64,000 nucleotides of DNA from a virus. The stretch spans positions 1 through 64,000 of the IMG/VR virus record IMGVR_UViG_3300045738_001212; one strand, written 5' to 3'. Below the pieces are notes generated by a model that did no database searches, was not told the DNA's origin, and saw only the letters and a program-made list of their open reading frames with translations. Position numbers and translations under genes: made by a program. Positions 29,636 to 54,383 of the stretch are shown piece after piece (the stretch's first letter is position 1; every line of letters starts with the position of its first letter).

Positions 29636-30019
29636 CTACCACCAGCACGAGTAAACTATCTTCCACCCGCCAGCTAGTGCCTTCCTAGCCTTCTGGATGA
29701 ATTCGATGTCGTCATCCTTGTAGCCGTATTCACCTTCATAATCCTCATAGGAATCATTGCCGAAGAAGAAGCCTCCTGTCTCTGGTAGTTCCTTGTCTAG
29801 GATAGCTTGCTCTAGGCTGTCCAAATCCTCCTCGTCAATAGTTACATCAACAAGATTGAATTCTCCATCGCCACCCTTGCTGCGCCAAAGCTCTTCCATC
29901 CACCCTTGCAAGCGATTATGCTTGCGCCAGTAGTGAAGCTCCGTCTTGGTGATGGTGTCGGTGCGTGTGTCTGAATCGTAGTCAGACTTAACTTGATATG
30001 CTGTTTGGTCGAGTCCCAT
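29636..30019 (-). CDS. conserved phage protein (MGLD...YWRK.N.L..W...YSCWW type)
   Basis: recognisable motif; SD AGGAGA. Confidence 0.75.
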   Translation of the reverse strand: MGLDQTAYQVKSDYDSDTRTDTITKTELHYWRKHNRLQGWMEELWRSKGGDGEFNLVDVTIDEEDLDSLEQAILDKELPETGGFFFGNDSYEDYEGEYGYKDDDIEFIQKARKALAGGWKIVYSCWW

Positions 30020-30028: not shown

Positions 30029-30954
30029 CTAGTTAGTGGTTGCGGTTGGTAGTGGTGGTAGTGCCAGCGGTTTAGGTAGCGGTGGCAACGGTGGGAGGCT
30101 GGCCATGTAAGCCAATCTCTCTACTTCAGCGAATGAAATACTGAATTGCTTCTTTAAGATAGGCAGCGCAGCCTTAATCTTGTAGAGGCGATAGGCTTCA
30201 GCCTTTGCCTCCTCGTGGGTTGCGCCTTCCTTCTTTCGGGCTTTGATGTGGTTGGTTACTTCAGCAGCCTTGACTGCGTTGCGAGCTTGGTAGGTTTTGT
30301 ATGTCTTCATTGGTAAGAGTATGCCTGAATTTGGTGTTGGTGTCAAGTTTATTCCTATATGGTTACCGCTGAGAGGCCGTTGGCTAGGATGGGCCGCTTG
30401 TGCAACGGCGCGAACGAATTGATGCGATGCCAGTTGAATCGGCGGATGACGTTTTCATAACCGTCACGGCATACCGTAGCGACAAAGCCCCCGTTGCCCG
30501 AAAAGAAGAATTCGTCGGGCGTGAGGATGAGATAGTTTTCAGTCTTGCCGTTGGCCTTGGTGTAGTTGAGTTCGAATGCTTTCTTGGTGTATGTCATGGT
30601 TATAATATACCATGAAAGAGCCTCGTTGTCAAGCAGTTTCTCACAGTGTTTCAATGTAAATCCCTGTTGCCAGTATCACCACGAATGACACGATGCCAAT
30701 AATGAGAACAAAATAAATATCTCTGAAATCGTCTTTCATAATCCCTCCTTGATATAATTATGCGTTCCCATCTTTTCAATAAAATGAGTTTCAAGCATAT
30801 CAAATTGATGCATCGCCGTGCCTCTGTTGTTGGCCCATTCTAACGCCCTAAAGAGTGAACAAGCTTTTTGATAAGTCTCACACACTTGAGCCGCTGCTAT
30901 GTTTTGATGCACTGACGTTGGCACTACGTTTTGTTCTTTTCCGTTTTTGGTCAT
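30029..30954 (-). other. small early genes 30029-30310, 30355-30597, 30736-30954 (starts corrected by promoter position)
   Basis: leaderless promoters / translational coupling. Confidence 0.7.
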
Positions 30955-31189: not shown

Positions 31190-31194
31190 AAGCC

Positions 31195-31617
31195 TTAAAC
31201 TACAGCCCAGCACCGATGCCCCACGAAACAATACGCTGATTTGGCGATGGGACGTTTCTCTTTTACCGTCACAAAAGTCTTATGCTTGTAAGGGTCGTAA
31301 GTCACCTCCACCCACTTGCCATCCACAGCCATCGTCTTCGCTTGCTTTAGCATCTCTTGAGGGGAAATCATATTTACAACAGGGCGATGCCCGGTATACG
31401 TAATCCACTTACCGCGCACGTAGGCGTGTACGTTCTTACGCATCTCATCCCGGACGCGATCATTGCCCTTGGCACCAACGACGAATTCAACATCATGCAA
31501 CAGAATACCTCTCACATGTTTGGCCACTAGGCCATCGTGTCGGGTACGCACCGAGTAAACCCGATCCGTCTTGTCTCCCCTGTGCAGGTTCCTGTAAACG
31601 TCTACCTTGCTTTTCAT
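31195..31617 (-). CDS. conserved phage protein (VYRNLH...KNVHAYV.G...YDPY type)
   Basis: recognisable motif. Confidence 0.7.
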   Translation of the reverse strand: MKSKVDVYRNLHRGDKTDRVYSVRTRHDGLVAKHVRGILLHDVEFVVGAKGNDRVRDEMRKNVHAYVRGKWITYTGHRPVVNMISPQEMLKQAKTMAVDGKWVEVTYDPYKHKTFVTVKEKRPIAKSAYCFVGHRCWAVV

Positions 31618-31997
31618 TAGTCTACGTTCTCCATGTCGTCGTGCATCATATTCTCAAGCTTGCCAATCTTGTCATCGCTTAACCCCGCTCGCCAATCATC
31701 ATCATCATATTCATTCTCCTCCTTCTCCCAGCGGTATCCCTCTGGCGGCATGATGTGCCACAAATCATTCGCCCTTGCCTCGCCTATGATGTAAGGCTTA
31801 ATCTCTTCCATTGAAACGTCGCCCCATTCATTCTCAACACCCATAACGTAGCCGAAGGCTATGCCGTTTTCGTCTGGCTCTCCCAGATAATACTCCCACA
31901 TATTCCGAAGGATGATGTGCTGGTGAACGGTGAACGCGCTGATGGGTAAGGTGCGGTTGTTTATGGGGACTATGTTTCTAGGTTTTGTAGGTTTCAT
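31617..31997 (-). CDS. DUF2958-like protein, leaderless
   Basis: WEYY...FGYVMG.E.EWGDVS.EEI. Confidence 0.55.
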   Translation of the reverse strand: MKPTKPRNIVPINNRTLPISAFTVHQHIILRNMWEYYLGEPDENGIAFGYVMGVENEWGDVSMEEIKPYIIGEARANDLWHIMPPEGYRWEKEENEYDDDDWRAGLSDDKIGKLENMMHDDMENVD

Positions 31998-33818: not shown

Positions 33819-33825
33819 ACAATTT

Positions 33826-34179: not shown

Positions 34180-34199
34180 GGTTCTTCACCCCTTGGCTT

Positions 34200-35093: not shown

Positions 35094-35315
35094 GATTTGT
35101 AGGTCTTTCTTGGTTAAGGGTTATCTCTCACTCACTACAAAGAGTGTATCACCAATCCACTATCCTGTCAAACCTTTTTTTCTGTCATTGGATACAAACC
35201 CGCCGCGCAGCGGTGGGTTTGGGCTTGCACTGAGTTAAAAAATGTGCGGGCGTTTTTACGACTCATTCCCTCCGTTAACCCATCCCTCCGGGCTGGGTTT
35301 ATATTTACACGCTAT

Positions 35316-37603
35316 TTAACTCTCATTCTTTTGCTTATTGCTAAACGGCGAAATCGACTCGGCTCCGCGCAAGTGATGCCGGATACCTAGTTCCACCTTA
35401 TGTTCAGCAGTATAGTCCCAATCGTCTTGGTCAAGGCTATACTCTGATTGGTATGCTGCCTCCATGTTGAAATTGAAATCACATAGAGTCGTGTCGTCAG
35501 TAAGGTTATGCTTCTGCACATACTCACTCAATGCCTCTGCGATAATCTTTATACGCAAGGGGTCGCCTTCAAGTATCATCTCATGCTCTTGTATCTTCAT
35601 TTATCCTCCAATCTCTCGTGTTCTAAAACATCATACTTATTAGCGTCGTCGAGGGTATAACCGTATTCCAGTTGACAGTCGTCTCCATAGTCTCCCTCCC
35701 CACTCATTGCCGTCTTGATAGCGTCGGCCTCATCCTCTGCCTCTACCACGATGTAGCAGTAGTGAACCTCTGGAACCTTAACTGTGAATGTTTTCATTTA
35801 TCCTCCAATCTCTTAAACTTGTCTACTATGATATCACAAACATCTTCCGTAATGGATTGCTTCTCTTCGTCTGTGAACGTGAATGGTGGGGTGTAGCCCT
35901 CCATGTATGTAATCACATCTTCCTGTAGCTGCTCCTTCACCTCTTTAATGACAAGGGATTGCGTGTGCTGAAATGGTTTGCGTAATGTTCTCATGCTTAA
36001 TCCTCCACTCCGTAAATTTCTTCGTAGTGTTCAATAATCTCATGGTCGTCTATGTTATCCATGCCAACGCAACCTTCCCAAAGGACTTGTTTCAAATCCT
36101 CGTCTGAAAAGCCCTCCCATTCAGATTCAAAAAGACGCTCGCGCATCGCTTGAATTTCTTTATCTGTATATTCTTTTACTGTGTCAGTCATAATTTAATC
36201 CTCCAGTAGATGGTCTTTGGCTGCTTCAATTACCTCTTGGTAATACTCGTTGTCCATTGGCTTAAAGCCTTCGAGACAATCTGAAATGGCGCATAGGCCA
36301 TCGACTATTCTGCTTCTGTCCACCATTCTCCCATTGTGGCTAATTGGGCCTTCATCTTGTTTCATGCTGTGATGTACTCTCCTTCCTCATTGAATACGAG
36401 TTCGAGATGTTTCAACTCCCAAGCGTTAGGTGCGTCCTTGAACCATTGGGTGTCCATGAACTTAATCCATGCGCGAGCGTTAGCGTGGGTGTAGGAAATG
36501 CCATCTGCAAACATCACATAGCTCTCATCCCATGTGTTGTAGAAGGTGGCCGTGTAGGCTTTCATTGTAGGTTTCATTACAAGTAATATACCACACCGGA
36601 GCGTGGTTGTCAAGGACTATTCGCTTAACGAGATTTGGTGGTCGCTCTCGGGAATGTTTACCTTTGAGATGTTTTCCTCCCACCTTTGATTCTCAAACAT
36701 GTTGGCGACGGCTTTTGCTACATCTTCTTTTGAAACGTCAGAGAAATCCCTTTTAGGTGTGCTGCCTAATACCTCACCCCAAGGGACATTGATTCTCCAC
36801 CCGACTGCTAAACACTCATGCCATACACCCTTCACGCAAACGTAATCACCCACCATCATTGAGCGAACTTCGAGCTTCTTAAAGAGGGTACACTCCCGAC
36901 CACTCCCGTTGTTCCAATCCTCCCACACCGCGTCAAGGATGTCTGGGTCTGTGTACTCACGCCCCTTGCTGTCCTCTACTGGGTAGTCCAACCAGAACTT
37001 CTTACATTGCTTCTCGGTCATGTCCCGATATTGAATTTTAACTCTTATCATAATCGTTTGCTCCGTGGGTGTAGGTTTCGCTCATAGATATAATGTAACA
37101 CACAAGGTACTACTTGTCAAGAGGTTTCTTCTTAATCATATCCAGTAACTTCTTATCGCACACGCGGGGGTGCTTTCCCCACTTCTCAACTACGTCTGCC
37201 ACCTGCTCACCCTTCTCATAGTCGGGTAGCTTAACAACGTACATGGAGTCACGGTCTCTTAACGTCTCATTGTATACCACGATCATCGGGTCGTCTGAAA
37301 GACGAGCCGATTGAATAGCCTCCTCCTCGGAGTTGGCATCTACGATATAGGTAGCCGAGTGCATTTCAGTTGTTATGACTTTATACTTCATGCCCAGTCC
37401 CCCTGTGAGTCTCCATCTATACCGTGCCTTTGGCATAGCTCATCCCATTCTGTCTCCTCGTAGCGTGACTGCCTTGATTGAGTGTCAAGTGCTACTTCTT
37501 TTAAGTGATTGGTAAGTTCTCCTACATCCTCGAATTGGATGCGAACGATCTTCTCCATTGCCTTGTCTAGTGCTGCTCCATGTAGGTTTCTTGTAGGTTT
37601 CAT
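35316..37603 (-). other. run of small acidic early genes: 35316-35600, 35597-35797, 35794-35994, 35997-36191, 36362-36577, 36617-37051 (RSMMVGD, YodL-like motif), 37110-37391, 37388-37603
   Basis: coupled stops/starts with GGAGGA embedded in ...ED(K)* C-termini. Confidence 0.7.
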
Positions 37604-37705
37604 TACAAAGACTATACCCTACTTCTACCCCCGTGTCAATATCAAAGTTTTTTAAAGTTTTTAATTGCACTGAGTTAAGAAATGTGCCCCCGCTTTTTTA
37701 ACTCA

Positions 37706-38242
37706 CTACCTTGTGATGGGTTTGCTGCACTGTTGACATCGATATTTGCGCCCACGCCTAATCCTATTATGTATTGTCGTGGATATCATATGAGGTCTAT
37801 CAATACAGCCACAGGTGTATTTCCACCGTCTCTGTTTCTTAGTGGATGAGTTCGTGGTATCATAGTTGTGACACCTATCAGGACGTAAGCCAAGCTTACG
37901 CATTACGTTCTTCCATTCGCGCCCGTGCGCCGTGCCACCGAATAGGCAATCTTTAATTAGGTGCGCGTACTCATGGCCAAGCGTTTGCTTTATAAAATGC
38001 TCGGTGTTTTCTTTTAAGAGAATGTAGTTTATTCGTATTTCGTTTTTATTAGAGTTTGCCGTTCCGGCCACCCTGCCTTTCAAGTTAAAGCGCAGCCTTG
38101 TCTCTGGCATACTATGCTTAAACTTTTTCTCTGTGTACTCGTGCAACTCCCTTATTCTATCCTCACACAAACGCACAAGGTCAGCCGTCCTTGGCGCGGC
38201 CAGCCCTGATTCCGTCTCTGTGAAATGTTCTATGATGATCAT
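37706..38242 (-). CDS. SprT-family zinc metalloprotease
   Basis: AGTA, HEYAH, HGREWK, YTCGC, YRCQQC. Confidence 0.9.
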   Translation of the reverse strand: MIIIEHFTETESGLAAPRTADLVRLCEDRIRELHEYTEKKFKHSMPETRLRFNLKGRVAGTANSNKNEIRINYILLKENTEHFIKQTLGHEYAHLIKDCLFGGTAHGREWKNVMRKLGLRPDRCHNYDTTNSSTKKQRRWKYTCGCIDRPHMISTTIHNRIRRGRKYRCQQCSKPITR

Positions 38243-38300
38243 TGTTTTCTAGATATCCAAATGTAGCCGAGCCAAAGTATAACCGCTATGAGTACCCACA

Positions 38301-39098
38301 TTATACAGCCTCCATTTGTTTGCGCTTGCTGTAGCCGTTCCACCCACGCCGTTTCAGTTCCTGTAGTGCTTGGCTTGCTGCGCTACCCTTTGGCTGTGTG
38401 CCGTGAATGAGTAAGGCAAAGCTCTTTGTGCCGAATGCTGCGTGGTAATCATCGTGGTCAATTTCAAAGTCCATTGCATCAGCTTGTTCCTCGCTGTAAA
38501 CTACCTCCGCGTACTTTAGGCCATGCTCGACAATCAGCGCGTCATGCTTGCCACCGTAGGAGGCGGTAAGCGCAAAGTTTGAAGGGATTGAATCAATACG
38601 CGCCACCCAATACTTTAGGCTTTTCGTGTATGCGTAAAAATGTTTGTCAGGCATACGCCGCGCAACTTCAAGCCATGCGTCAAAATACGCTTGATTGAAA
38701 AAGTCACCGCCAACATGGACACGCATGATATCAAATTTTTTGGGAAGCATCGATTCCAGCAAATCAGCAATGGCTTTCACTTGGTCTTTGTCATAACGCC
38801 ATGCGTCCATCATCACTTCTTTAATTGCCTCAAAATTACGCCACACCATTGCGCGAGTGTTTTTGTACTGTGATTCAGAGCTTGCGGCGAAGCAACGAAA
38901 TTCCGTGTCAGGCCCATCCGTGATTTTACCCGTTTCCCTGTTGGCCTTGGATAAGCATTCTTTGGCGGCGGGACAAGTCCACCCACTAGGCAAAGTGAAG
39001 GATTTAATAGTTTTGCCGAGCCGGTTTGCCATCGCGATAAGCTTGGCGTTGGCTTGTGAGAATGTGAGAGTCAAAGGTTTAGTCGTAGTAGGTTTCAT
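38301..39098 (-). CDS. Gp88-like protein (Cys motif, RVHVGGDF)
   Basis: LPSGWTCP..C...CFA, RVHVGGDFF, FYAYTKS. Confidence 0.8.
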   Translation of the reverse strand: MKPTTTKPLTLTFSQANAKLIAMANRLGKTIKSFTLPSGWTCPAAKECLSKANRETGKITDGPDTEFRCFAASSESQYKNTRAMVWRNFEAIKEVMMDAWRYDKDQVKAIADLLESMLPKKFDIMRVHVGGDFFNQAYFDAWLEVARRMPDKHFYAYTKSLKYWVARIDSIPSNFALTASYGGKHDALIVEHGLKYAEVVYSEEQADAMDFEIDHDDYHAAFGTKSFALLIHGTQPKGSAASQALQELKRRGWNGYSKRKQMEAV

Positions 39099-39135
39099 GG
39101 TTATAATATAGCAGGTTTCGCTGTGTCTGTCAAGG

Positions 39136-40403
39136 TTAAACGCCTATAAAATGCGCTGCGGTTTTCTTCGTCCAAAAGCCGTCGGCATCTATATTCCCAC
39201 CGTTACTCGCTCGCCCACCATTGCCCACGGGAATGGGAGCAACACTATACTCGCCCATGTTTGAATGTTTAATGAAGGGTTCGGAAACTAAACTGTTGAA
39301 CCTTAAACGCGCAAGTAGTCGAGCGTATCGCCTAATCTTTTCCTTGAGCTTGTTTCCGAATTTGCCTAGTAGGTAGGCGAGGGATGAGTTGTAAAGATAC
39401 TTCTTATAGCTTTCCTCTGTCGTCCAGATGTAAGCGAACCTCTCAGACATATGAATCAACTCGCCGTTGTAGGCTCCGTGGTTGTACCAACTGAAATCTT
39501 GTGATTCGATTTCCTTGGGGTCATTAGATTGGATACCAACGGCCCAGCTTGAGCCTTGGGGACAATAGAACAGTGAGGGTTTCTTTCTAGGTTTCATATG
39601 TATAATGTAGCATAAAAAAGTCCCCCTGTCAAGGGGGACTTTCAGTGTTAGGCCGAGGCTAAACCTTTGCCGTAGTCGATTAAGTCGAGGTCGTGCGTTG
39701 CCGCAGCAGTCGCGTCAGTGATGTCCGAGAATTCGAATATCTCAATCGCTGGCAAGTTGTTGCCGTACTTTCCCTCTGGGAGGTCTGAATACTTTGGCAC
39801 TACGGCCTCGCGGAGAAGGGCGATCTTCTTTAGGTCATCTCTGATGAGTTGGGCCTCCATTCCGTCATTGCCGAGATTATGCTCGTCGATTCTTGTCTGT
39901 GCTTCTGCGACATCTTTTTCAAGTCGCACGATATGTTTGCCGAAGGCAATCTCTAGTTTGTTATTCATCTAGAACAATGTACCATCGATTACCCTGTTTG
40001 TCAATTAAAATCGATTAAAACTTTTTAAAATTTTCCGCTTGTAGTGAGTGAAAAAATGTGCCGCCGTTTTCTAAACTCATTGCAAGAAAAAAAGCCCCCC
40101 CGAAGGGGAGCCTCTCATGAACGGTTATTTAACCTTTATTTATTTGCTTATTATTTACGGCTTATTTATTTGCCAATTATTTAATTAATATTTATTTGCT
40201 AATTATTTAATCATTTCATCGCTTACATCGTCCTCTACTATTGCCCAGTCTACTTCCCATGAGCCTTCTACATATGTTCCATTGTCTGGTAAGCCTATGC
40301 CCATGTCCGACTCTGCTATCTCAGCAGCGTGTTGGCGCGTGTCCGACTTAACAGTTACCCAACCATACATCTGCCAAGCTACTGGTACTTTGTATTCTTT
40401 CAT
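39136..40403 (-). other. hypothetical early genes 39136-39597, 39648-39968, 40203-40403
   Basis: ORFs with leaderless promoters or coupling. Confidence 0.7.
40087..40113 (-). terminator. intrinsic terminator (UUCG loop, U7)
   Basis: ggctcccc-ttcg-gggggc-ttttttt on minus strand. Confidence 0.75.
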
Positions 40404-41372
40404 TTAACGCTCCTCCTTTCCGAACATTGCTTCTAGGTATTGCTTGCCTTGCGGCGTGATGTTGCGACCCGCAGTCGTGATTTCCATGAGGTCATTCTTT
40501 TGCAAGTACAACTCATAGTCACGGCGCAGCGATTCAGGCGTCATGCCTGTCTTGGAGCCGAGGCGGGTAAGGGACACGTCCCGACTCACCTGAAGTATCC
40601 GAAGCACTTCAACTTCTTTCGGACGCAACCCAAGAGGACGGATGCCAAGGGTATGGGTGAGGCTATTCCAATCAGCGAAACCGAATGCCTTTCCATTACC
40701 GTTGGCGTCCAAATACATTTGAATCTTTATTGCCATTTTTTGTGCGGCGCGAGCATTGCCACGAAGCACGGATGCGACTTCAGCTACCAAGCCATCCTCG
40801 AACTTAAGGTCAGGAAGATTGATTTGCACGATAGTACCCAATTCAGTATAGGTGTACTCTTCTAGGTCAACCCTATCCAGCCTGTCCATGAGCGCATGAA
40901 ACACTTTGTGTGGTTCACTGGTGGCGAACAGGAAGGTCTGACGACGGAAATCGAAGTCTACCGTGTAGTCATCATAGCTAAAAGAGTTACGATTGCGTGG
41001 GTTGGGATTAAGGATAGTCAGCAATGCCATCTCCACGTCTTGAGGAATCTCGCTTGCTTCATCAAACAAGATAGTGACATCACGGTCATTGAGGTGAGGA
41101 ATAATTAACTCATCAAAGAATTTTTTAACATTTTTAAGAGTAGAACAATTTACTTCTATGTATCTTTTAGGCCCATCATCTCCATCCTTCACCAACTCTT
41201 TTGCGAGAGCAGTTGCCAACATGGTCTTGCCACACCCCTTTGGCGCGGTGAACATTAAGTTGGGGATGAGTCCTGCTTTCTCGTAGGAATCAATGTAGAA
41301 GTTGAGTTTGCGTTTTGCGGTGTCTTGTCCGATGACACCATTGAATCTTGGAAGCTTGTAGGTTTCGCTCAT
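40404..41372 (-). CDS. ruvB: RuvB-like AAA+ ATPase (Holliday-junction branch-migration motor homologue)
   Basis: IGQ, Walker A APKGCGKT, FDE, ALMDR, RGNARAA, E.YL...TTAGR winged-helix C-terminus. Confidence 0.8.
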   Translation of the reverse strand: MSETYKLPRFNGVIGQDTAKRKLNFYIDSYEKAGLIPNLMFTAPKGCGKTMLATALAKELVKDGDDGPKRYIEVNCSTLKNVKKFFDELIIPHLNDRDVTILFDEASEIPQDVEMALLTILNPNPRNRNSFSYDDYTVDFDFRRQTFLFATSEPHKVFHALMDRLDRVDLEEYTYTELGTIVQINLPDLKFEDGLVAEVASVLRGNARAAQKMAIKIQMYLDANGNGKAFGFADWNSLTHTLGIRPLGLRPKEVEVLRILQVSRDVSLTRLGSKTGMTPESLRRDYELYLQKNDLMEITTAGRNITPQGKQYLEAMFGKEER

Positions 41373-41410
41373 GTATAAAGCATACCATTAATCTAGTATG
41401 CTGTCAAGGA

Positions 41411-41915
41411 CTAATTTCCTTTCTCGGCTCGACGAATAACCTCTTCCATAACGTCTCTCATTACGCGCTGGTCGGCTTTACTGTGATAAACGTGATGACC
41501 ACTAACGACATCAAAATTATTAATAATAATATTCTTCTTCCACGGATTGCATTCATCTACCACTTCATTCCATGCGGTTTCATATCTTGCCGCCATGCCT
41601 GTTGGTGGTGGGGGTGGGAGTTTCATCTTATCTTTTATTACACTCATTTTACCACTTCTCCTCTACTTCTACGTGAGTCTTATCGTTCTCTTCGAAGTCG
41701 GTGACTTTCACGTTTACGTTTTCTTTGGTGTTATCTGAAACAGCAGTTATATCAGGAGTGACAACCCCGAGGTCTACGGCCCACTTGCGTGAGACTTTAA
41801 CCACCATGCTGGGGCGAAGAAGCTCGTTCAACTGAGCAAGAGTGATATTGCAAAATGAGTAGGAACCTTTTTTGCGTCCACTACCAACTTTCCTCTTTTT
41901 CTTTTTATCGGCCAT
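41411..41915 (-). other. two small hypothetical genes (41411-41647, 41649-41915)
   Basis: ORF track; leaderless promoter at 41915. Confidence 0.65.
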
Positions 41916-42056
41916 ATAAGAATAATAACCGAAATCTACTCCCCTGTCAAGATTTTTTTAAAGAAAAGAACAAGCATAAAAACAATAATACTAATAAATA
42001 AAAATGAGATGTATGCTATTGTCAACACCCCTATATAGCAGCCCACCACTATCTCT

Positions 42057-42395
42057 TTAAGCGTCCTCATCGAATCTGTATTTCAAGTCATTGTATAGTA
42101 TGCGCGAAAGTGTATTGCCGAACGCTAATACTTGCGTCTCGGTAAGCTCTGGGAAGTAAGCGTGAGCAGTCTCATGGATGACCGTGTTAAGTATCACTTG
42201 ATTGGAGCGATGAGGGTTTATCAAGATGGTCGTAGGCTCTTTTCCTATCACAGGATAGAAGCAGACACCATCGCAATCCTCTCCCCACCTGCGCTTGTCC
42301 GGCTTCCTGAAGACGAATTCATAGGGAACGCCTTTGCAATTTTTAAATTTTAAATAATTTTTCAATTCCACCCCTAAGCTAAAATAGTCTAACAC
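42057..42395 (-). CDS. small HExxH metallopeptidase-like protein
   Basis: NTVIHETAH. Confidence 0.7.
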   Translation of the reverse strand: MLDYFSLGVELKNYLKFKNCKGVPYEFVFRKPDKRRWGEDCDGVCFYPVIGKEPTTILINPHRSNQVILNTVIHETAHAYFPELTETQVLAFGNTLSRILYNDLKYRFDEDA

Positions 42396-42538
42396 GATAC
42401 AGGATAATCCTGAATAAGTCTAATAAGATAGGATATTCCTAAATAACCCCAAAAAAGACTAAAAGAACACGTCTATATTTTACCATATATTTCGCCTTTT
42501 TGCAAGCATTATTTCAGGCGTTTAGAAAAACTTGGAGC

Positions 42539-42659
42539 AAAGAAAGACCCCCCGCTACAAGAACTTAAGCAGCGGGGGGTCGGGATATCCCCCTGAATCC
42601 CGCTGTGAGGCAGGACTCCAACCAGTTGGGTCAGGAGGTGGTCCGGTGAACCAACTGTA
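42539..42659 (-). ncRNA. candidate small RNA B with anti-SD CACCUCC(U) hairpin and terminator
   Basis: TTAGAA-N17-TATAAT promoter; three hairpins; U-tract. Confidence 0.7.
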
Positions 42660-42695
42660 TAAGTATTATACGATAGGAGGTGTTTTGTTCTAATG

Positions 42696-42760
42696 AAAAA
42701 AGCCCCTGACCGAAGTCAGAGGCAGGTGAGATGAATGTCCTAGACTGGAAGTCTTCGGAG
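42696..42760 (-). ncRNA. candidate small RNA A with unpaired CAUUCAUCUCACCU and UUCG terminator
   Basis: TTAGAA-N17-TATAAT promoter; hairpin, linker, terminator. Confidence 0.7.
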
Positions 42761-42834
42761 CGATATTATAATTTTAAATTAAATTTATTCTAATTTTTTT
42801 TACTGCTTGATAGCAGCGGTGAATGAATTAAAGA

Positions 42835-43189
42835 AGTTGTTGTAATCCTTTTAATTAGTCAGCACACCAGTGATGTTTTAATCCTCTATATTTGGAATCA
42901 ATAAATTTGCTATTTTTTCTCCCTTTCAGACCGTGTTTTAATCCTCTAATACTTAAATGGAGTCATGTTGTTGTAATCCTCTCACCCTATTACTCTCTGT
43001 GTTTTAATCCTCTATATTTGGAGTCAATAAATTTGCTGTTTTTTTATCGGCGTTTGGTTATGTGTTTTAATCCTCTAATACTTAAATTAAATGGCTTTCA
43101 GGGCGATGTTTTAATCCTCACAAAATACATTCCCGAGCTTCATGTGTTTTAATCCTCGTGCTTAAAGCGGCGAATGTTGTAATCCACTA
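42835..43189 (-). repeat. array of nine GAGGATTAMAACA-type repeats downstream of a sigma70 promoter (candidate ncRNA)
   Basis: TTGACT(43223)-N17-TATACT; no long ORF on the transcribed strand; internal ~85-bp duplication. Confidence 0.8.
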
Positions 43190-43314
43190 CAAGAAGTATA
43201 CCACCAGCCTTATTTCGAGTCAAGAAGATTTATGGGGAAAAATTAATTAATATATTTAAACTTTTTAAAATTTGCGGGGGCCAGATTTGTTTTGACTTTG
43301 TATCAGATTTATGA

Positions 43315-43569
43315 TTACCTTTTCATACGTCGATAGTTCTTCGCCCAAATGACATTGCACATTTCAGTTGCAGTTTGATCTATTCTGGTTTCAGGCCAAG
43401 CAGGATTATAGATGTGGAGCATTTCATGAATAAGAGTATTTAAATATTGTTTAGATTTTAATCTGCCATCTATTTCAATTTTATTTTCTCCTACCCACGC
43501 TAAACCTAGAGCCTTCTCCCTACCGAGAGGCCGCTCTACTACTTCAATTTTAGTCTTTCTTCTAGGCAT
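43315..43569 (-). CDS. small HExxH metallopeptidase-like protein, related to 42057-42395
   Basis: NTLIHEMLH; GTGTAAT motif upstream. Confidence 0.75.
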   Translation of the reverse strand: MPRRKTKIEVVERPLGREKALGLAWVGENKIEIDGRLKSKQYLNTLIHEMLHIYNPAWPETRIDQTATEMCNVIWAKNYRRMKR

Positions 43570-43993
43570 ATGGGTAATTACACAATGCTACCAACTTTAT
43601 TATAGGTATATTTTGGAGAATATATAAAAAGCGGTCACCCATTTTTTTAAATTTTAATAAACAAATTAACCACTCTCTTCTTTGTATACTATGCCCTTTA
43701 GACCTCTTTTACTAGGTTTTCGGGGGGAAAGTGGGGCAAAGGTGTAGGTTTCTGTGGAGTAGGGGGATTGTAGGCAAGTAGTAGGACAGCGTAAACCAAA
43801 CAAAAGCCTTTTGCAATGCAAATAAACAAAAAAATGCGTTGGACGAAACAATTACAGGCAATGTTGTCTAAATCATCCCTCCTGCTTAACCCCTATCAAG
43901 ACGAGAAGCATCTCAATAGTAACAGGCATTGTTTCTGAGTCCGATGCCAACGCTCACCGTCGATTAGTTAGGGATAATAGTTGCGACAAAAAG

Positions 43994-46900
43994 TTATTTA
44001 ACCAACAAGGCTACTTCCCCCCAATTTACCTTACAAGAACCCTGCACCATCTCATCGACAATGGTATGGCAGTCTCCTATCCCTTCGCATTCACAACCGC
44101 TTTGCTGGACTAGCTCCGCTGCGTATTCGATGTTATTAGCCTTCACGGCTATCGTGCCTTTCACGACCCAAGTAACAGGTACTTCGTATTTCATTTCGTT
44201 TGGCCTAATGTCTTTTATCCTTATCATTAATCTATATGTGGCGCACCTAGTAACGCCCAGCATATTCTAAACCCAAGGAAGCATATCACTATTATAACTA
44301 TATCACCAATCATGTTTATCCTTTCTTTTGTTGTTGTCTTCGTCCGTACTGATGCCATAAATCTCCGATTTTGCGTTTTGCCCATTCGCTCTTGCCAACT
44401 AGTTGTGTTGTAGTCCTCTTAGTCCTCTTTCGCTCGATAAACTCTTTAAACTCTTTAAGGCGTAGCCGCGATGGTACATTAGCATCACCGTTCTTGACGA
44501 TGTTAGCCATGCGATTGTACAGTTCGTCTAGTATCTCTTTATCAGTCATTTCATTATAGGAAGCATTGTTGTAATCCTCATTTTACCGTTTTTTTTGCTG
44601 AGTCCTTCTTTGTTGAGTGCTATGTTCCAAAATGGAACTAACCTCTTCCTCGGCAAGTTGTTTGGGTATGTGTTAGGTGTCGTAATCCTCTTGTCGTGTG
44701 TTGTGCGTGTCAGTGTCTTTTCTTGTTGTAATCCTCTCAAATCCATCGGGTTGGTATGTGCCGCAATCCTCATGTACTCAGGGAGCTTTTTTGTTGTAGT
44801 CCTCTCCCTTGTAATCTTCGGCGGTAACGCTCTTGTACGCAAGGTTATTCGCCTCTTCCCTGTGCAACAGGTCATACATCTTTGGACTCTCACTGGTGGC
44901 GCAGCCGCCAGCAAACAATAATATCAATATAATAATAACTTTCATTTTAATTTAGCTCGGCCTATGGCCTGAATCTGTCTCTTTAAGGTGTTTTCCCCAA
45001 GCTTCCATTTGCTGCTCTTCAGTTAATTCAAAGACGGCGGCGATCATTCGCCTCTCGTCACTCAAGCTCGACTTATCTTTAAAATACTCTTCTCTCCATT
45101 TTAGCCACTCTTCGTAGTTCATTTTCTCACTTGTGCTTTTGTTTTCCACCTGCGGTGAATTCATTTTTCCCCTCCACAATGTCTGGCCTCTCCCTTTCAA
45201 TCATGTCTATGATGTCTTGGCAACGGTCAAAGTATTGGTCTATGCTAAAAGTCGATGACCTTGGCGAATTGGGGCATCTATCGTAGATTGCTTGCAATAG
45301 TTCGTAATTTCTCATCGCTCTATCCTTTCAAAGTGCTTGTCTACAATGTCGAGTAAATCAACCTCTATTCCCCTGACGTACTCAAAATCAGCCATCGGCA
45401 AGTCGCTCAAAAGAGTAGCGAAATACTTTTCAACATCTTCGTGAATGTCTGCCTTAACGTCTAGTATTTTGTATCCCATTATGCGTCCTCCCCGTAAAAG
45501 ACTTTCCATTCGCTGTCGAATACCTCATTGTCGTAGTGGGCTAGACCCTCTTCTATCTTGTCCACCGCGAACTCGTACAGGTCTTTGTCGTCCCATGAGT
45601 CAACCATGTCTCGCGCCAACTTCTCCCTGTTCTCATCATTGTTGGTGATGAGTTGGCCTCCGTTTGGTAATTGTAGTTTCCACATATTGTTATCCTTTCT
45701 TAATTTAGTTCGTGTTGAAAACATTCTAGTTCCCCGCCATTTTTCATCTTGAGTACATAGATTCGGTGCTTACCCCTCCTGCCATGCTTATCAATTACCG
45801 TCCCGTATCCTGAGCATATGCCTTCGTCGGGGTCTTTCCAGTACACTTCGTCTCCAATTTCAAATACCATTAGTCTTCCTCCCTCATTACGTCATTCCTG
45901 TAATCTTGCATTTGGAAAACTGCCTCCATGACTGCATCATGGCATTTTTCATCGTCAGCTTCTAGTGCTTCAGCAGAATAATTTCTCGCTGTTTCCAATA
46001 GTATGCCCATTGCTTCTCTATTAGTCATAATTTTACCTTTCTTTTTTAAATAATTTTTTAATGCTGCTTCCGCCTCATAGAAGGTGGAACTATCCGTGTT
46101 GTTGTGCTTCATTCCTCCCTCATTAGATCATTTGAGTAGTCTTGCAGTTGATCAATCGCTTCGAGAATTTCTTCTTCTTCTTCGTAATCGTCTGCGTGAC
46201 GATTCGCTATCTTCAATACCAACTCCATTGCTTCTTTGTCGCTCATGCTTTTACCTTTCTTTTTGCGCTTCATTCTTCTCGCGCTTTTTTATATCTCTTT
46301 GGTTATATCTTGTCTGCGCTTCGGATGGCATATCTTTTTTGACTGCCGCGACTGCCGCTTCGCCTTCCTCATCTGTCGGCCAAGGGTAACCGCGCCCAAT
46401 TTTTCTTTTACTTTTTTTCTCCACCAAGGCGGGACTTTTGACAGGCGGCAAATCTCCCTCTTCGTAGGTATCAAAGCCCGATATGGCCTCCATATACTCC
46501 TGCTCCGTAAAAAGCTCTCTAATGCGCTTCTGGAGGGCATTAATGACCATCTGCTTCTCGTTCTTAAGGCAGTCGTACCAATCCTCGTACTCACTATTGG
46601 GAACTGCGAACGCTATATCCATTGCGTGATTGTATTTCTTTTCTTTCACTGTTTACCTTTCTTGTTGTTGTCTCCTAGTGTTTTAATCCTCTTATACTTA
46701 TGATCTGCTGTTATGTTTTAATCCTCTGTCTTCGCCTGTTAAAACCCATCGTATGTACTCATACATTAGCTTGCTAAAGCTGATGCCGTTACAACTTACT
46801 CGGCTTACTCGATTTTTAAAAAATTTAAATTCACCGTGCTTCATTATACATCCCACTCATTCATTGCCTCTTCCAACACTTGCTCAAAGCTTTTACTATG

Positions 46901-49130: not shown

Positions 49131-49174
49131 AGAGGACACCGAGAGAAGGAGGTAGAAGACTCTCGATGTCCTCT
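49131..49174 (-). terminator. 3' hairpin of rIIB-like gene with anti-SD loop UCUUCUACCUCCUU
   Basis: 15-bp stem with G-U on minus strand. Confidence 0.75.
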
Positions 49175-51085: not shown

Positions 51086-51617
51086 TTTTTCTTTTTGGTT
51101 TTCTTCGCCTCCTTGGCGGCTGTTTCGTACTTTATATTCTCTCGCAGTTCTGACTTGGGGCAGTATGCCCAACCATCGCTAAGTAAATTTCTTAATTGCT
51201 TAAATGATTCTTGGTACTTGCCTTCTGAGTCTGCCTCTTTGGCGATTTCTCTCATGGTGAACCATTGGTTTGGCAGCGGTGATATTTTGGTATACTTTTT
51301 TCCTTTTTTTAGTGTTTTCATAAAGCCTCTAAATACTCTAACTCCTTTTCTACGTCTTCTGGTTTAAGCCATCCCTTCACTTGGTCATGCCAAGCTTCAA
51401 TTTCCATCATCTTTTCACCGCCAGCATAGAACGCCCCCATTTCAAACAACCCTTTTTCGTGACCATAAGATGATCCATGCCTCACCACTGATACTTCAAT
51501 CCCATTGGAAAGAGCCGTGTACGCTTGGCAGGGATCAGCAAGCCATCCACCCTCTACCTTGTAGGACTTCCCGTATGCCTCGTCCATCGCTTCAAATTCT
51601 AGATTGTCAAATTTCAT
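51082..51617 (-). other. two small hypothetical genes (51082-51321, 51318-51617)
   Basis: coupled ORFs; SVVRH..SYG...GLFE motif in the second. Confidence 0.65.
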
Positions 51618-51651
51618 ATTTTTTTTAAAATTTTAATTGCGTCATCCAACT

Positions 51652-51733
51652 AAAAGAAGGAGACGGGGGAAGCAACCTACTCGCTCCCCCCGCCTCTAGA
51701 ATGCCCCACCGGAAACCTACTAACGATGAGGCA
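51652..51733 (-). terminator. tandem 3' hairpins of rIIA-like gene with AGUAGGUU loops; second is a terminator
   Basis: 10- and 14-bp stems with G-U pairs on minus strand, U-rich tail. Confidence 0.8.
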
Positions 51734-51739
51734 GATTGT

Positions 51740-53923
51740 TTACTCATCGCACTCATCCAACTTTTTCATATAGTCGCAGAGCGCATTTAAAGCGTCTTTC
51801 CCTTTGTCTTGACGCGCATTGTAGCTGCTAGTGTCAACATGAATTACCAGAGGATAATCCTTTTCCACTTCGTCTGCAAGCTTTTTTAAGGACGTATCCT
51901 GCTTGCCCTTTGCTTTAGGAATTTCAAATCCCCAATCTCTAGCGTTCATTCTGATCTGCTCCACCTTTGTACGAATCTCTTGAGATTCGCCGTACTGTCG
52001 CTGAACAGAAACGTAAGGATGCTCACTTCCGAGAAGTTTTTCAGCCAAATCTAACTCTTCAATTCTGTGATTCCATTCGTGGAGGAACCAGTCTCTTTTC
52101 CCTTCGCTAGATTGGGATGAAATACGATCCAGTTCGGAAAGATTTTCTTCTTCGACAACCTCCGAAAGGTTATCAGCTACCCACTCATGCAACTCCACCC
52201 AATTAGGATTGTCCTTGAGCTTCTTGGATTCTGCTTTTGTGAAACCGTGCAAGGTGTCGGGCATTTCGATTTTATGCTCTTTCAAATACTTTTCGACTCT
52301 CTCGTAAGGCTCGTCAAATTTAACAGGCTCGTCGTAGGGGTAGTCCTGTTCTGGACGCTGAACCTTGTAGCGGTTAATCACCACGTACACGCCTTCATCC
52401 TCATCCACGTCAACCTCTGCCGCCACCCAACGATCACGCCACTTGCCCCATCTGTATCCAGATTTATCCCAAGTGAATGTCTTGTGAGTAGTCCGACCAT
52501 ACGATACTCCGTTGCCAACCCTCTTCGGAGGTTTCGGTAAACCGTCCAAAGAAATCGTTTCCACGTCGAAACCCATCTCTTTGCAAATTTGCTTTTCGGT
52601 TTTGGGTTTGTCGCCGCCGTTAGTCACGCTGAGTACCTTGTCAAAAGTGACGAGGTAAACTTTACGCCCCTCTTCCTCCTGTTGCAGGGTAACGATCTTA
52701 CCCAACGCAAGACGGAAATGTCCAACGTCATTCTTTACCACTACAACTTTGTCGCGGCATTCTATATTGGTTGTCTCCCTAAAGCGTAAATTACCAGCGC
52801 GAGTTTTCTTTAGACAACGAATGTTTACGTTGTTGTACTTGTAGAAGTTGTACTTACCATCATCAATCTTCTTACCGTTGAACGTGATGTTCTCCCGCGC
52901 CCAAGTTGACAACTCGTAGAGACTGCTACCATAGTCGCAAATCTCACCGAGCAAACTCTTGGCGTCAAACATGGTGTTGCAACCGTTGAATTTTTTCTCG
53001 ACTTCATCCTTCAACTCCTTGCTCACTTTTTTGATTTTAGTGATGAGAGCTTTCTTGGTGATGTCGGTAAGTTCAAGAGCTTCACGACTTGCCGTGATGT
53101 TCAACTCACCAATTTCAAACTCTAGAATAAGATGATCGTTTACGATTGACCTTGCTGGATCATCCCTGTCCAAATCCAAGTCATAAGCATCCCACTCGTA
53201 AGGAATCCCGCCCATGACCGCAACAGGATTGTTACCGCTCTCTTTAAGATACTTCCAATCGCTACCCTCAAACAGCGTCTCAACCTTAAGCCCATCAAGT
53301 TCGTGGTCTTCAAGACCATGAATAACTGGCTTCACCTTGAAATGTTTGAACAGGTTAATCGACTTACTGATAAACTTATCTATGTCTGCCTCTCTGACGG
53401 GAATGATAATCTCCAAACCGTCCTTCTCATCAGTTGGGCTTGCGACGAGCTTGGCAATCTGTCCGATTTTGGTTTCATCAATATAAGCGGTGTAACTATG
53501 CCTCTCACCGTCAATGTAAGAATTGATTACAAAACTGTCACCGTAAGCAAATCCTGACTTGGAACCGAGTCCGAGCATACCAATCTGTGCATTGGAATTG
53601 CGCTTCGTTGACTCCCCATACATCGCGTAAACTTCCGCAATCTCTTCCTCGTTAAGTGCGGGGCCAAAATCACGGACAATAAAAGACGGATCAAAAACGC
53701 TAGGCATGGTGACTTCAATCGGTAAGTCTTCTTTCCCTACTTCCCTGTTAGCGTCGATGGCGTTCGCCGTGTACTCTCTAACTACTGCTAAGATTTTGTC
53801 AGAGTAAAGTTGGTTGCGGAGAACATTTAGAATGTGAGCGAGTCCAGTTTGTTTGATTCCAAAGGAGACGGCCTTGGTTATGCCTTGGCTCTGGATTTCG
53901 ATGGGGTCTTCAAGAATTTTCAT
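51740..53923 (-). CDS. rIIA: rIIA-like protein (GHKL ATPase N-terminal domain)
   Basis: LYSDKILAVVREY..NA.DA, VRDFG, YGESTK, GMLGLGSKS.FAY. Confidence 0.9.
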   Translation of the reverse strand: MKILEDPIEIQSQGITKAVSFGIKQTGLAHILNVLRNQLYSDKILAVVREYTANAIDANREVGKEDLPIEVTMPSVFDPSFIVRDFGPALNEEEIAEVYAMYGESTKRNSNAQIGMLGLGSKSGFAYGDSFVINSYIDGERHSYTAYIDETKIGQIAKLVASPTDEKDGLEIIIPVREADIDKFISKSINLFKHFKVKPVIHGLEDHELDGLKVETLFEGSDWKYLKESGNNPVAVMGGIPYEWDAYDLDLDRDDPARSIVNDHLILEFEIGELNITASREALELTDITKKALITKIKKVSKELKDEVEKKFNGCNTMFDAKSLLGEICDYGSSLYELSTWARENITFNGKKIDDGKYNFYKYNNVNIRCLKKTRAGNLRFRETTNIECRDKVVVVKNDVGHFRLALGKIVTLQQEEEGRKVYLVTFDKVLSVTNGGDKPKTEKQICKEMGFDVETISLDGLPKPPKRVGNGVSYGRTTHKTFTWDKSGYRWGKWRDRWVAAEVDVDEDEGVYVVINRYKVQRPEQDYPYDEPVKFDEPYERVEKYLKEHKIEMPDTLHGFTKAESKKLKDNPNWVELHEWVADNLSEVVEEENLSELDRISSQSSEGKRDWFLHEWNHRIEELDLAEKLLGSEHPYVSVQRQYGESQEIRTKVEQIRMNARDWGFEIPKAKGKQDTSLKKLADEVEKDYPLVIHVDTSSYNARQDKGKDALNALCDYMKKLDECDE

Positions 53924-54053
53924 AGGTTTCAGTTTCTTTTGTTGGTAGGTTAATCTCTAATGCTATTAAGAGTATACTCTCGTTCTCTTTTCGAGTCAAG
54001 AGTTTTTTTTCATTTTAAAGTTTTTATGAGTGTTCATAAGTGTAATTCTTTGT

Positions 54054-54383
54054 ATGCACACCATTGAAGACCTTCATTTGCTACTGCAAAGCCTACGAGA
54101 GGAAGCGATGGAGAACGGGTTTGAGTTGAATGTAGAACATACAGCAGACGATAATCTATTCGTGATTGCTAACCTTAAAACCGAAAAGGTTGCTTGCCTT
54201 GCCCTCACTGAAATTAGTGGTACGGATGTAATAGTATCTTATATGATTTCCCTGCGTAAATGGAAATGGTATGATGATGAAGGCTTTAGTAGGGAACAAG
54301 TAGTCGATAAAAGGGACATCAGAGAAGACATCTTTAATTTCATCCCCGCTGATAAAATTATAAAACACCTAAAAGAAAAATGA
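54054..54383 (+). CDS. hypothetical protein (start corrected)
   Basis: AAGTGTAAT motif 7 nt upstream. Confidence 0.65.
   Translation: MHTIEDLHLLLQSLREEAMENGFELNVEHTADDNLFVIANLKTEKVACLALTEISGTDVIVSYMISLRKWKWYDDEGFSREQVVDKRDIREDIFNFIPADKIIKHLKEK

What the first reader, a model, noticed from the sequence alone, without database searches (positions are those of the whole stretch)
51652..53960. rIIA 3' double hairpin displays the antisense of the AAACCUAC tag
Seen: right after the rIIA stop, two hairpins that fold on the mRNA strand (G-U pairs) have loops UUAGUAGGUUUC and GAGUAGGUU. These are complementary to the two motifs in rIIA's own leader and to the 5' tag of about ten leaderless genes, with 11 contiguous pairs to the Gp88-like start (GAAACCUACUA). 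Inference: either 5'-3' kissing that closes or silences the mRNA, or a 3'UTR-derived seed sRNA that switches off the early regulon. This is my best candidate for an undescribed regulatory system.
Basis: partly seen in the sequence, partly recalled or inferred. Interest (0 to 1): 0.87.

Follow-up and report, generated by a model that had tools for sequence, protein, structure and literature searches.

The report
rIIA mRNA tail mirrors its start
In this uncultured marine phage and about twenty related lineages, the RNA just after the rIIA gene carries sequences complementary to the gene's own start region. Where the start sequence differs between relatives, the tail differs to match, so the two ends of the message very probably pair to control rIIA translation, which has been shown in bacteria but which I did not find reported for phages.

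Summary
After the rIIA stop (minus strand) two hairpins fold on the mRNA strand. The second is an intrinsic terminator. Their loops carry UAGUAGGUUUC and GUAGGUU, which complement AACCUAC and GAAACCUA(UG) in rIIA's leader, a leader with no Shine-Dalgarno (SD) sequence.

The same loops also complement a tag placed right after the AUG of about eight leaderless early genes. One of these pairs over 11 nt.

In 66 non-redundant metagenomic loci, AACCTAC clusters at the rIIA start and GTAGGTT just after the rIIA stop. The 3' copies sit in large terminator loops or over the stop codon, while the stems differ completely between lineages.

Several lineages replaced both partners together: L015 (11 nt), L064 (12 nt, two 3' copies), L026/G002 (12 nt) and G001 (9 nt). 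A gene's own 5' and 3' ends match better than ends from different lineages (permutation p about 1e-5).

My reading is 5'-3' pairing of the rIIA mRNA of the icaR type, probably limiting initiation. Action in trans on the tagged genes is plausible but confined to the window's clade. No transcript or effect data could be obtained.

This scan noted similar 3'-loop/start-site mirrors in other phage genomes. This one is not based on an SD sequence. I class it as a new variant of a known kind.

The parts
53971..53999 (-). rIIA early promoter, TTGACT-17-TATACT, preceded by an A-rich tract
   Evidence: Conserved in relatives.
53945..53951 (-). 5' tag 1, AACCUAC, in the SD-less rIIA leader. Complementary to GUAGGUU of loop 2.
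   Evidence: duplex -9.8 kcal/mol, opening cost 0.6. Conserved in L003, L008 and others.
53923..53930 (-). 5' tag 2, GAAACCUA, abutting or overlapping the AUG. Eight Watson-Crick pairs with UAGGUUUC of loop 1.
   Evidence: (-10.4 kcal/mol).
51740..53923 (-). rIIA coding sequence, 727 aa
   Evidence: PHROG 612, E 5.5e-113. Relatives.
51702..51733 (-). Hairpin 1: 10-bp stem with two G-U pairs; loop UUAGUAGGUUUC at 51712-51723
   Evidence: In ten relatives 100% of stem cells pair, 6 of 10 pairs show changes on both sides, and the loop TTAGTAGGT is invariant.
51660..51696 (-). Hairpin 2, an intrinsic-terminator stem-loop. Loop GAGUAGGUU at 51674-51682 (GUAGG at 51676-51680 in the best fold).
   Evidence: A GUAGGU-bearing large loop is kept in 18 lineages with unrelated stems.
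51650..51659 (-). U-rich tail of the terminator, CUUCUUUUAG
41358..41365 (-). Tag AAACCUAC at +8 of a leaderless 322-aa gene for a clamp-loader-like P-loop protein (41372..40404). Candidate trans target.
   Evidence: -13.0. Tag kept in L086/L088/L089. The G002 ortholog carries the variant AAUCCUAC, which matches that phage's variant loop.
39086..39096 (-). GAAACCUACUA at the start of a leaderless 265-aa gene (39098..38301, phrog_1392). Eleven contiguous pairs with loop 1.
   Evidence: -14.8 kcal/mol. Tag kept in L088/L089, lost in L090.
39587..39594 (-). Variant tag AAACCUAG at +4 of a leaderless 153-aa gene (39597..39136)
   Evidence: -9.3.
37582..37600 (-). Two tags (AAACCUAC twice) at +4 and +15 of a leaderless 71-aa gene (37603..37388)
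37071..37078 (-). Tag in a short leader (AUGAGCGAAACCUAC) behind the promoter at 37120. A 15-codon frame follows, then GGAG and a second ATG.
36567..36574 (-). Tag at +4 of a leaderless 71-aa gene (36577..36362)
31987..31994 (-). Tag at +4 of a leaderless 126-aa gene (31997..31617)
30290..30297 (-). Tag at +14 of a leaderless 93-aa gene (30310..30029). It may be kept at the protein level, because the G002 ortholog has the same residues.

Best explanation
The 3' end of the rIIA transcript base-pairs with rIIA's own translation initiation region. The 3' partners are a site at or near the stop codon (in this phage, the loop of hairpin 1) and the large loop of the terminator hairpin. The 5' partners are one to three AACCUAC-type boxes within about 25 nt of the AUG, in a leader that has no Shine-Dalgarno sequence. 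The pairing may form within one molecule or between copies.

Once the 3' end has been transcribed and is free of terminating ribosomes, it covers the start region. The most likely effect is to limit new initiation, capping rIIA synthesis per transcript, as shown for icaR.

Shown here: the structures, the complementarity, its conservation, and the joint replacement of both partners in several lineages.

Inferred: that the RNAs pair in the cell, and that the effect is repression.
For: (1) Both hairpins fold on the mRNA strand only, through G-U pairs. Covariation in ten relatives supports them: 98.5% of cells pair, 10 pairs changed on both sides, and 0 of 500 shuffles reached this. The loop letters TTAGTAGGT are invariant.

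(2) In 66 non-redundant loci (453.5 kb), 44 of 84 sense AACCTAC copies lie within -60..+40 of the rIIA ATG. Of 75 sense GTAGGTT copies, 52 lie within 130 nt after the rIIA stop. Elsewhere the counts are near background.

(3) The 3' copies sit in 9-15-nt loops of hairpins whose stems are unrelated between lineages (18 lineages), or over the stop codon (9 lineages).

(4) Both partners were replaced together in several lineages.
- L015: AAACCCGUUAA with loop UUAACGGGUUU (11 nt).
- L064: ACGACUAUGAAA with loop UUUCAUAGUCGU (12 nt), plus a second copy over its stop codon.
- L026/G002: AAGAAAUCCUAC with loop GUAGGAUUUCUU (12 nt).
- L022: GAACUGAA with loop UUCAGUUC.
- G001: AGUCCAUUA with UAAUGGACU over the stop codon.
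- L021 and L023: CCUACCACAA(A) with loop UUUGUGGUAGG.

(5) The longest Watson-Crick run between a gene's own 5' and 3' ends is 8.27 nt, against 6.86 for ends from different lineages (30 lineages, p 5e-5). Among the 20 lineages with the feature it is 9.4 against 7.5 (p about 1e-5).

(6) Lineages without a 3' hairpin also lack the 5' box.

(7) Inside the coding region the box is kept at the nucleotide level. At the conserved N-terminal proline, CCT is used in almost all box-bearing lineages, against 35% of proline codons in the body of the ORF. The next residue varies but always starts with A.

(8) The sites are accessible. Duplex energies are -10 to -15 kcal/mol and opening costs are mostly 0.1-2.5 kcal/mol.

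(9) The mechanism has precedent: in icaR, 3'UTR/SD pairing blocks initiation (PMC3868564).
Against: No transcript ends, abundance or effect data were available.

For lineages with the standard AACCUAC box, ends from other lineages pair as well as a lineage's own ends. The covariation signal therefore rests mainly on a handful of lineages with altered motifs: 3 unique maxima, and 9 of 20 at the row maximum.

The box is far more conserved than pairing alone requires, which hints at a further partner or further targets.

In the best fold of hairpin 2 of this window only GUAGG is unpaired, and opening GUAGGUU costs about 3 kcal/mol.

The direction of the effect is not addressed by any result here. 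In hbs, 5'/3' pairing stabilises the mRNA (PMC5737220).
Confidence: 0.55

Rival explanations
1. The main job of the two hairpins is in trans. The rIIA 3' end, as part of the mRNA or as a processed ~80-nt fragment, pairs through its loops with the AAACCUAC tag next to the 5'-terminal AUG of the leaderless early mRNAs and shuts off their translation. rIIA's own leader would then be one target among several. This does not exclude cis pairing.
For: Seven or eight early transcripts carry the tag at +4 to +14, in two reading frames. They have no complementary 3' element of their own, and the only GUAGGU loops in the genome are those after rIIA.

Predicted duplexes with loop 1 (-12.7 to -14.8 kcal/mol) are stronger than with rIIA's own leader (-10.4). 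Untagged leaderless genes give only -4 to -6.6.

The tags are the most conserved letters of these N-termini in relatives at 84-93% identity.

In G002 the variant AAUCCUAC occurs on the sense strand only at the rIIA start and at +9 of the leaderless P-loop gene, and it matches the variant loop.

A set of shared targets would explain why the box is frozen in most lineages but drifts where only rIIA carries it, as in G001, L015 and L064.
Against: The tagged leaderless cassette is confined to the window's close clade. It is lost in L090 at 76% identity, and only 7 IMG/VR contigs match the cassette pattern, two of them close relatives.

Across relatives the motif pair is concentrated at rIIA itself.

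I found no internal promoter or processing site, and there are no transcript data.

The tags could instead belong to mobile promoter cassettes (near-identical promoter-plus-ATG units). At least one may be a protein-level feature (30310).
Confidence: 0.2
2. The pairing is real but acts positively. By holding the stop and start regions together and tying up both ends, it either stabilises the mRNA against end-dependent RNases or hands terminating ribosomes back to an AUG that has no SD sequence.
For: rIIA lacks an SD-like 4-mer in 29 of 30 lineages.

In 9 lineages the 3' site overlaps the stop codon, and in 6 the 5' site overlaps the AUG. In L037, L054, L064 and G001 the stop and start codons lie in or next to the same short helix.

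In B. subtilis hbs, a 5'/3' UTR interaction stabilises the mRNA (PMC5737220).
Against: Pairing over a start region normally blocks initiation, as in icaR (PMC3868564). I found no precedent for ribosome hand-over through a 5'-3' helix in bacteria. In the window itself the nearest 3' site is 17 nt past the stop, in a hairpin loop, not over the stop codon.
Confidence: 0.17
3. The feature acts at the DNA level. AACCTAC/GTAGGTT would be inverted binding sites for a DNA-binding protein (looping or a roadblock), or inverted repeats of a mobile or recombining cassette around rIIA.
For: The motif occurs in opposite orientations at the two ends of one gene. Ends that change together would also be expected for sites read by one co-evolving protein.
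Against: This does not explain why the 3' copies are always in loops of strand-specific hairpins rich in G-U pairs, or over the stop codon. It does not explain why the 5' copies track the AUG on either side. It would also need a protein to change specificity completely in four or more lineages. rIIA is syntenic next to rIIB with no transposase nearby.
Confidence: 0.04
4. It is chance. The region is an ordinary double hairpin and terminator whose loops happen to match a common motif.
For: Seven- to eight-nucleotide matches are short. Shuffled 3' ends still give runs of about 6.3 nt.
Against: The motif is enriched roughly 100-fold at both rIIA ends in 66 loci. Loop letters are invariant while stems vary. 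Private 11-12-nt pairs occur in L015, L026 and L064. Permutation p is about 1e-5.
Confidence: 0.02

Closest known systems
icaR mRNA of Staphylococcus aureus: 3'UTR motif UCCCCUG pairs with the SD region of the same mRNA (Ruiz de los Mozos et al. 2013, PMC3868564)
   Same: A sequence in the 3' UTR is complementary to the translation initiation region of its own mRNA. Pairing may be within one molecule or between copies. The expected result is control of initiation.
   Different: The target here is not an SD sequence but an AACCUAC-type box, or the AUG itself, in an SD-less leader. There are two 3' sites, one in the terminator loop and one near or over the stop codon, and one to three 5' boxes. 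The 3' UTR is short (~90 nt) rather than long. The host is a phage, and the pairing is kept across about 20 lineages with both partners replaced together in some. RNase III cleavage and a block of initiation are untested.
hbs mRNA of Bacillus subtilis: 5'/3'-UTR interaction that controls RNase access (Braun et al. 2017, PMC5737220)
   Same: Base pairing between the two untranslated ends of one bacterial mRNA, linked to translation status.
   Different: There the effect is protection from RNase Y/J1 in a strongly SD-driven mRNA. Here neither the RNases nor the direction of the effect is known.
3'UTR-derived small RNAs that share the terminator of the parent mRNA (enterobacterial type; review of regulatory 3'UTRs, PMC5502269), and regulation through terminator loops of sRNAs (PMC11979758)
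   Same: A terminator-proximal 3' segment of an mRNA carries sequence complementary to the start regions of several other mRNAs (about 8 in this phage). The terminator loop is the functional part.
   Different: No processed fragment, internal promoter or chaperone dependence is shown here. In PMC11979758 the authors conclude that the loops act 'likely without base-pairing' (section heading), whereas here complementarity is the conserved feature.
Phage antisense and translational shut-off systems: P1/P7 c4 RNA, T4 RegA protein acting on early start regions including rIIB (from my own knowledge, not checked here)
   Same: Early-gene start regions of a phage are occluded by a phage-made factor.
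   Different: c4 is a separate processed RNA gene and RegA is a protein. Here the candidate factor is the 3' end of the rIIA mRNA itself.

Membership tests
5'-3' UTR pairing of one mRNA (icaR type) | The 3' UTR contains sequence complementary to the translation initiation region of the same mRNA | tested here: met
   8 and 7 Watson-Crick pairs in the window. 7-12 nt in 20 of 30 lineages.
5'-3' UTR pairing of one mRNA (icaR type) | Complementarity is maintained in evolution (both partners change together) | tested here: met
   Private pairs in L015, L022, L026/G002, L064 and G001. Own-versus-cross permutation p 5e-5 and about 1e-5.
5'-3' UTR pairing of one mRNA (icaR type) | The 3' motif is an anti-SD (C-rich UCCCC) that pairs with the SD | tested here: not met
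   The motif is GUAGGUU pairing with AACCUAC. 29 of 30 rIIA leaders have no SD-like 4-mer.
5'-3' UTR pairing of one mRNA (icaR type) | Pairing blocks the initiation complex and/or creates an RNase III substrate | not testable with these tools
   Needs toeprinting, RNase assays or reporters.
3'UTR-derived trans-acting sRNA | A stable RNA species covering the 3' end, made by processing or from an internal promoter | not testable with these tools
I saw no convincing internal promoter in the last 60 nt of rIIA.
3'UTR-derived trans-acting sRNA | An accessible seed complementary to several target start regions | tested here: met
   About 8 tagged early transcripts at -9 to -15 kcal/mol, against -4 to -6.6 for untagged controls. 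True only in the window's own clade.
Intrinsic (Rho-independent) terminator | GC-rich stem-loop followed by a U-rich tract on the transcribed strand | tested here: met
   Hairpin 2 has 16 pairs, 10 of them G-C, with tail CTTCTTTTAG. The same build is seen in relatives. The loop is unusually large compared with the tetraloop terminators elsewhere in the genome.
rIIA (PHROG 612) | Full-length match to the family profile | tested here: met
   E 5.5e-113, residues 1-707 on profile positions 1-713 of 725.
Any Rfam family | Covariance-model match | tested here: not met
   Nothing relevant at E up to 10 in 51500-54100.

The most novel reading that the evidence does not exclude
The helix between the rIIA start and stop regions acts as a bacterial 'closed loop'. 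A ribosome terminating at the stop codon melts the stop-proximal site and is handed directly to the adjacent AUG, which has no SD sequence. The terminator-loop contact keeps the two ends together meanwhile. The message is then read in rounds by recycled ribosomes, while fresh initiation is blocked.
Probability: 0.1. Interest if true: 0.9.

Novelty: new variant of a known kind. Interest (0 to 1): 0.72.

Why it matters
Pairing between the 5' and 3' UTRs of one mRNA is known from very few bacterial genes, and I found no report of it for a phage.

Here it is tied to one conserved early gene, rIIA, across about twenty deep lineages of abundant uncultured marine phages, and both partners were replaced together in several of them. 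Comparative support of that kind is rare for long-range mRNA pairing.

It suggests a protein-free way for phages to meter or time early-gene translation, and in this clade possibly to shut off a set of leaderless early genes.

It also gives a defined pair of short elements, a box next to the AUG and a terminator loop, that can be tested and reused in reporters. Similar notes from other phage genomes in this scan suggest the principle may be widespread.

Tried and rejected
- **Rfam.** No relevant family matched.
- **DNA and protein searches of cultured phages.** There was no DNA match. The best rIIA hits are only 27-34% identical. Two that I inspected, Phaeobacter phage MD18 and Yersinia phage P778, lack the feature. 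The DnaE-type polymerase also has no close cultured relative, so the host stays unknown.
- **A plus-strand promoter-like site** (TTGTCA-16-TAAAAT, 51604-51631) that could make an antisense RNA carrying the tags. Its -35 box is not conserved in nine relatives, so I rejected it.
- **RNAduplex energies for the own-versus-cross test.** The method allows long interior loops and gave unrealistic duplexes, so I used contiguous Watson-Crick runs instead.
In this genome it holds only for rIIA and gene 30019..29636, and weakly for rIIB.
- **Ribosomal RNA as the partner of AACCUAC.** I considered this from memory of 16S sequences and saw no accessible GUAGGUU. The box works on either side of the AUG and is replaceable, which argues against a fixed ribosomal site. 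I did not test it.
- **The 43-codon ORF 51756..51625 across the hairpins.** Gaps whose lengths are not multiples of three occur in relatives, so it is not conserved.
- **Whole-record searches of long metagenome contigs for tags.** These records are not held.
- **An IMG/VR pattern scan for the tagged leaderless cassette.** It found 7 contigs, two of them close relatives.
Full report
**What is there.** The window is part of a 157,997-bp single-contig virus record with 43% G+C. The 727-aa gene at 53923..51740 on the minus strand is rIIA (PHROG 612, E 5.5e-113). A TTGACT-17-TATACT promoter precedes it (53999-53971). Its roughly 45-nt leader has no Shine-Dalgarno (SD) sequence but holds AACCUAC (53951-53945) and GAAACCUA, which runs into the AUG (53930-53923).

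Right after the stop codon the mRNA strand folds into two hairpins at -46 kcal/mol (z -4.1). The opposite strand reaches only -29.5 kcal/mol, because several pairs are G-U.
- Hairpin 1 (51733-51702) has the 12-nt loop UUAGUAGGUUUC.
- Hairpin 2 (51696-51660) has the loop GAGUAGGUU (GUAGG in the best fold) and a U-rich tail, so it scores as an intrinsic terminator.

**The tag in this genome.** AAACCTAC occurs 12 times in the window against 2.25 expected. Eleven copies are on the minus strand. Most sit just after an ATG that lies 6-7 nt behind the -10 box of strong TTGACA-17-TAnnnT promoters between 27 and 44 kb, so these are leaderless early transcripts. The tag occurs in two reading frames (ATG-AAA-CCT-AC and ATG-AGC-GAA-ACC-TAC). 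It therefore acts at the nucleotide level.

Hairpin loops with GUAGGU occur in the whole genome essentially only after rIIA. Predicted loop-tag duplexes are -9 to -15 kcal/mol with small opening costs. Untagged leaderless starts give only -4 to -6.6 kcal/mol.

**Relatives.** The cultured-phage collection has no DNA match, and its rIIA hits are at most about 34% identical. Metagenomes hold many relatives. I fetched 4 close loci (74-83% identity) and 80 more (32-59%).

In ten relatives at 57-83% identity both hairpins are kept. Of all stem cells, 98.5% pair and 10 pairs changed on both sides, which no shuffle out of 500 reached. The loop letters TTAGTAGGT are invariant.

In 66 non-redundant loci (453.5 kb) the motif pair is concentrated at the two ends of rIIA.
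- 44 of 84 sense AACCTAC copies lie within -60..+40 of the rIIA ATG.
- 52 of 75 sense GTAGGTT copies lie within 130 nt after the rIIA stop.
- Counts elsewhere are near the roughly 28 expected per strand.

The 5' boxes lie just before the AUG, where an SD would be, or a few codons inside the gene. The 3' copies lie in unusually large (9-15 nt) loops of terminator hairpins whose stems are unrelated between lineages, or directly over the stop codon, as in UAG-UAGGUUU.

**Both partners change together.** I grouped the loci into 30 lineages at below 65% rIIA identity. Twenty of them show 7-12 contiguous Watson-Crick pairs between the gene's own start region and its own 3' end. The site is in a hairpin loop in 18 lineages, over the stop codon in 9, and over the AUG in 6. 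The ten lineages without a 3' hairpin, where rIIB follows directly, also lack the 5' box.

Several lineages replaced both partners:

| Lineage | Start-region sequence | 3' partner | Pairs |
|---|---|---|---|
| L015 | AAACCCGUUAA | loop UUAACGGGUUU | 11 |
| L064 | ACGACUAUGAAA (across the AUG) | loop UUUCAUAGUCGU, plus UUUCAUAG over the stop codon | 12 |
| L026/G002 | AAGAAAUCCUAC | loop GUAGGAUUUCUU | 12 |
| L022 | GAACUGAA | loop UUCAGUUC | 8 |
| G001 | AGUCCAUUA | UAAUGGACU over the stop codon | 9 |
| L021, L023 | CCUACCACAA(A) | loop UUUGUGGUAGG | 9-11 |

A gene's own ends match better than ends from different lineages. The mean longest run is 8.27 against 6.86 nt over 30 lineages (permutation p 5e-5). 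Among the 20 lineages with the feature it is 9.4 against 7.5 nt (p about 1e-5). Lineages that share the standard box cross-match equally well, so the signal comes mainly from the altered lineages.

Inside the coding region the box is kept at the nucleotide level. The N-terminal proline is almost always CCT where the box is present, against 35% CCT in the body of the ORF, and the following residue varies but keeps its first A. rIIA leaders lack an SD-like 4-mer in 29 of 30 lineages.

**Interpretation.** A third factor could read only one of two complementary sequences, so direct RNA-RNA pairing between the rIIA start region and the rIIA 3' end is the economical reading. The strand-specific hairpins and the loop placement argue against a DNA-level explanation.

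The closest established case is icaR of S. aureus, where a 3'UTR motif pairs with the SD region, blocks the initiation complex and creates an RNase III substrate (PMC3868564). In hbs of B. subtilis a 5'/3' interaction instead stabilises the message (PMC5737220). By analogy, and because the paired segment lies within a ribosome's footprint around the AUG, I favour a brake on new initiation once the 3' end exists. The direction of the effect is inference.

The frequent overlap with the stop codon suggests a link to termination. Terminating ribosomes would keep that site open. It also leaves room for a more unusual hand-over of ribosomes from the stop to the start.

**Action on other genes.** The tagged leaderless genes have no 3' partner of their own. 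Their tags are the best-conserved letters of their N-termini in relatives at 84-93% identity (L086, L088, L089) but are lost at 76% (L090). In G002 the variant AAUCCUAC occurs on the sense strand only at the rIIA start and at +9 of the ortholog of the tagged P-loop gene, matching that phage's variant loop.

That fits a small set of genes read by the rIIA 3' end. It would also explain why the box is frozen in most lineages yet free to change where only rIIA carries it. However, the tagged leaderless cassette is restricted to the window's clade, and no separate RNA species can be shown. I rate action in trans as plausible, not established.

**What I could not do, and context.** No expression data could be obtained. 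Rfam has no such family, and no cultured relative carries the feature. A plus-strand promoter-like site next to the hairpins is not conserved. The 'general rule' noted for this genome holds for only two or three genes.

Earlier notes of this scan describe 3' hairpin loops mirroring early ribosome-binding sites in several other uncultured phages, also compared with icaR. I did not test those. They are not independent evidence, but they suggest the principle recurs. This case differs in being tied to rIIA, in not using an SD sequence, and in the stop-codon site.

**Verdict.** The pairing reading is supported by comparative data, while its effect and any regulon are untested. It is a new variant of a known kind of control, of clear interest for phage gene regulation.

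Noticed in passing
window 29587-30040 (minus strand): Gene 30019..29636 (127 aa) is followed by a hairpin (29626-29587) whose large loop has 9 nt complementary to the gene's own start region. Only 0.4% of other start regions in the genome match as well. This is a second case of the same design in this genome.
   Followed up: partly
window 49131-49174 (minus strand): The hairpin after rIIB has the loop UCUUCUACCUCCUU. It contains ACCUCCUU, the letters of the 16S anti-SD sequence, and matches rIIB's own SD over 7 nt. It would match any SD equally well.
   Followed up: partly
window 27000-44000 (minus strand): About 20 strong TTGACA-17-TAnnnT promoters have an ATG 6-7 nt after the -10 box (leaderless early genes). 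Four promoter-plus-ATG units at 32033-32860 are nearly identical, like mobile regulatory cassettes.
   Followed up: partly
window 37040-37120 (minus strand): One tagged transcript is not leaderless for its main gene. AUGAGCGAAACCUAC opens a 15-codon frame, followed by GGAG and a second ATG.
   Followed up: no
whole genome G000; rIIA leaders in L001-L085: Only 33% of 133 crudely called ORFs have an SD-like 4-mer upstream (12% background), and rIIA has none in 29 of 30 lineages. The host probably relies little on SD sequences. Its identity is unknown.
   Followed up: partly
window 51618-51650 and the same place in L002-L014: A conserved A/T-only stretch (AATTAAAATTTTAAAAAAA) lies between the rIIA terminator and the ATG of the next gene, which has neither an SD nor an obvious promoter. 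That gene is probably expressed by read-through of the terminator.
   Followed up: no
L064, L066, L067, about 60 nt after the rIIA terminator: A tRNA-like gene with a CAU anticodon follows the rIIA terminator in this lineage. Its T arm reads GUAGG-UUCAAGU-CCUAC, a chance resemblance to the motif.
   Followed up: no
G000 123552-126128 (plus strand): The replicative polymerase is of the DnaE (Pol III alpha) type (phrog_405, E 4e-152). Its best hits in the cultured-phage collection are below about 32% identity, so the phage belongs to a lineage without cultured members.
   Followed up: partly
L053, L060, L061, L070, upstream of rIIA: In this lineage the small gene before rIIA also starts with AACCUAC-C-AUG. 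Its box shares the ACAACCUAC extension that matches the loop GUAGGUUGU, so more than one gene carries the box in some distant lineages too.
   Followed up: no
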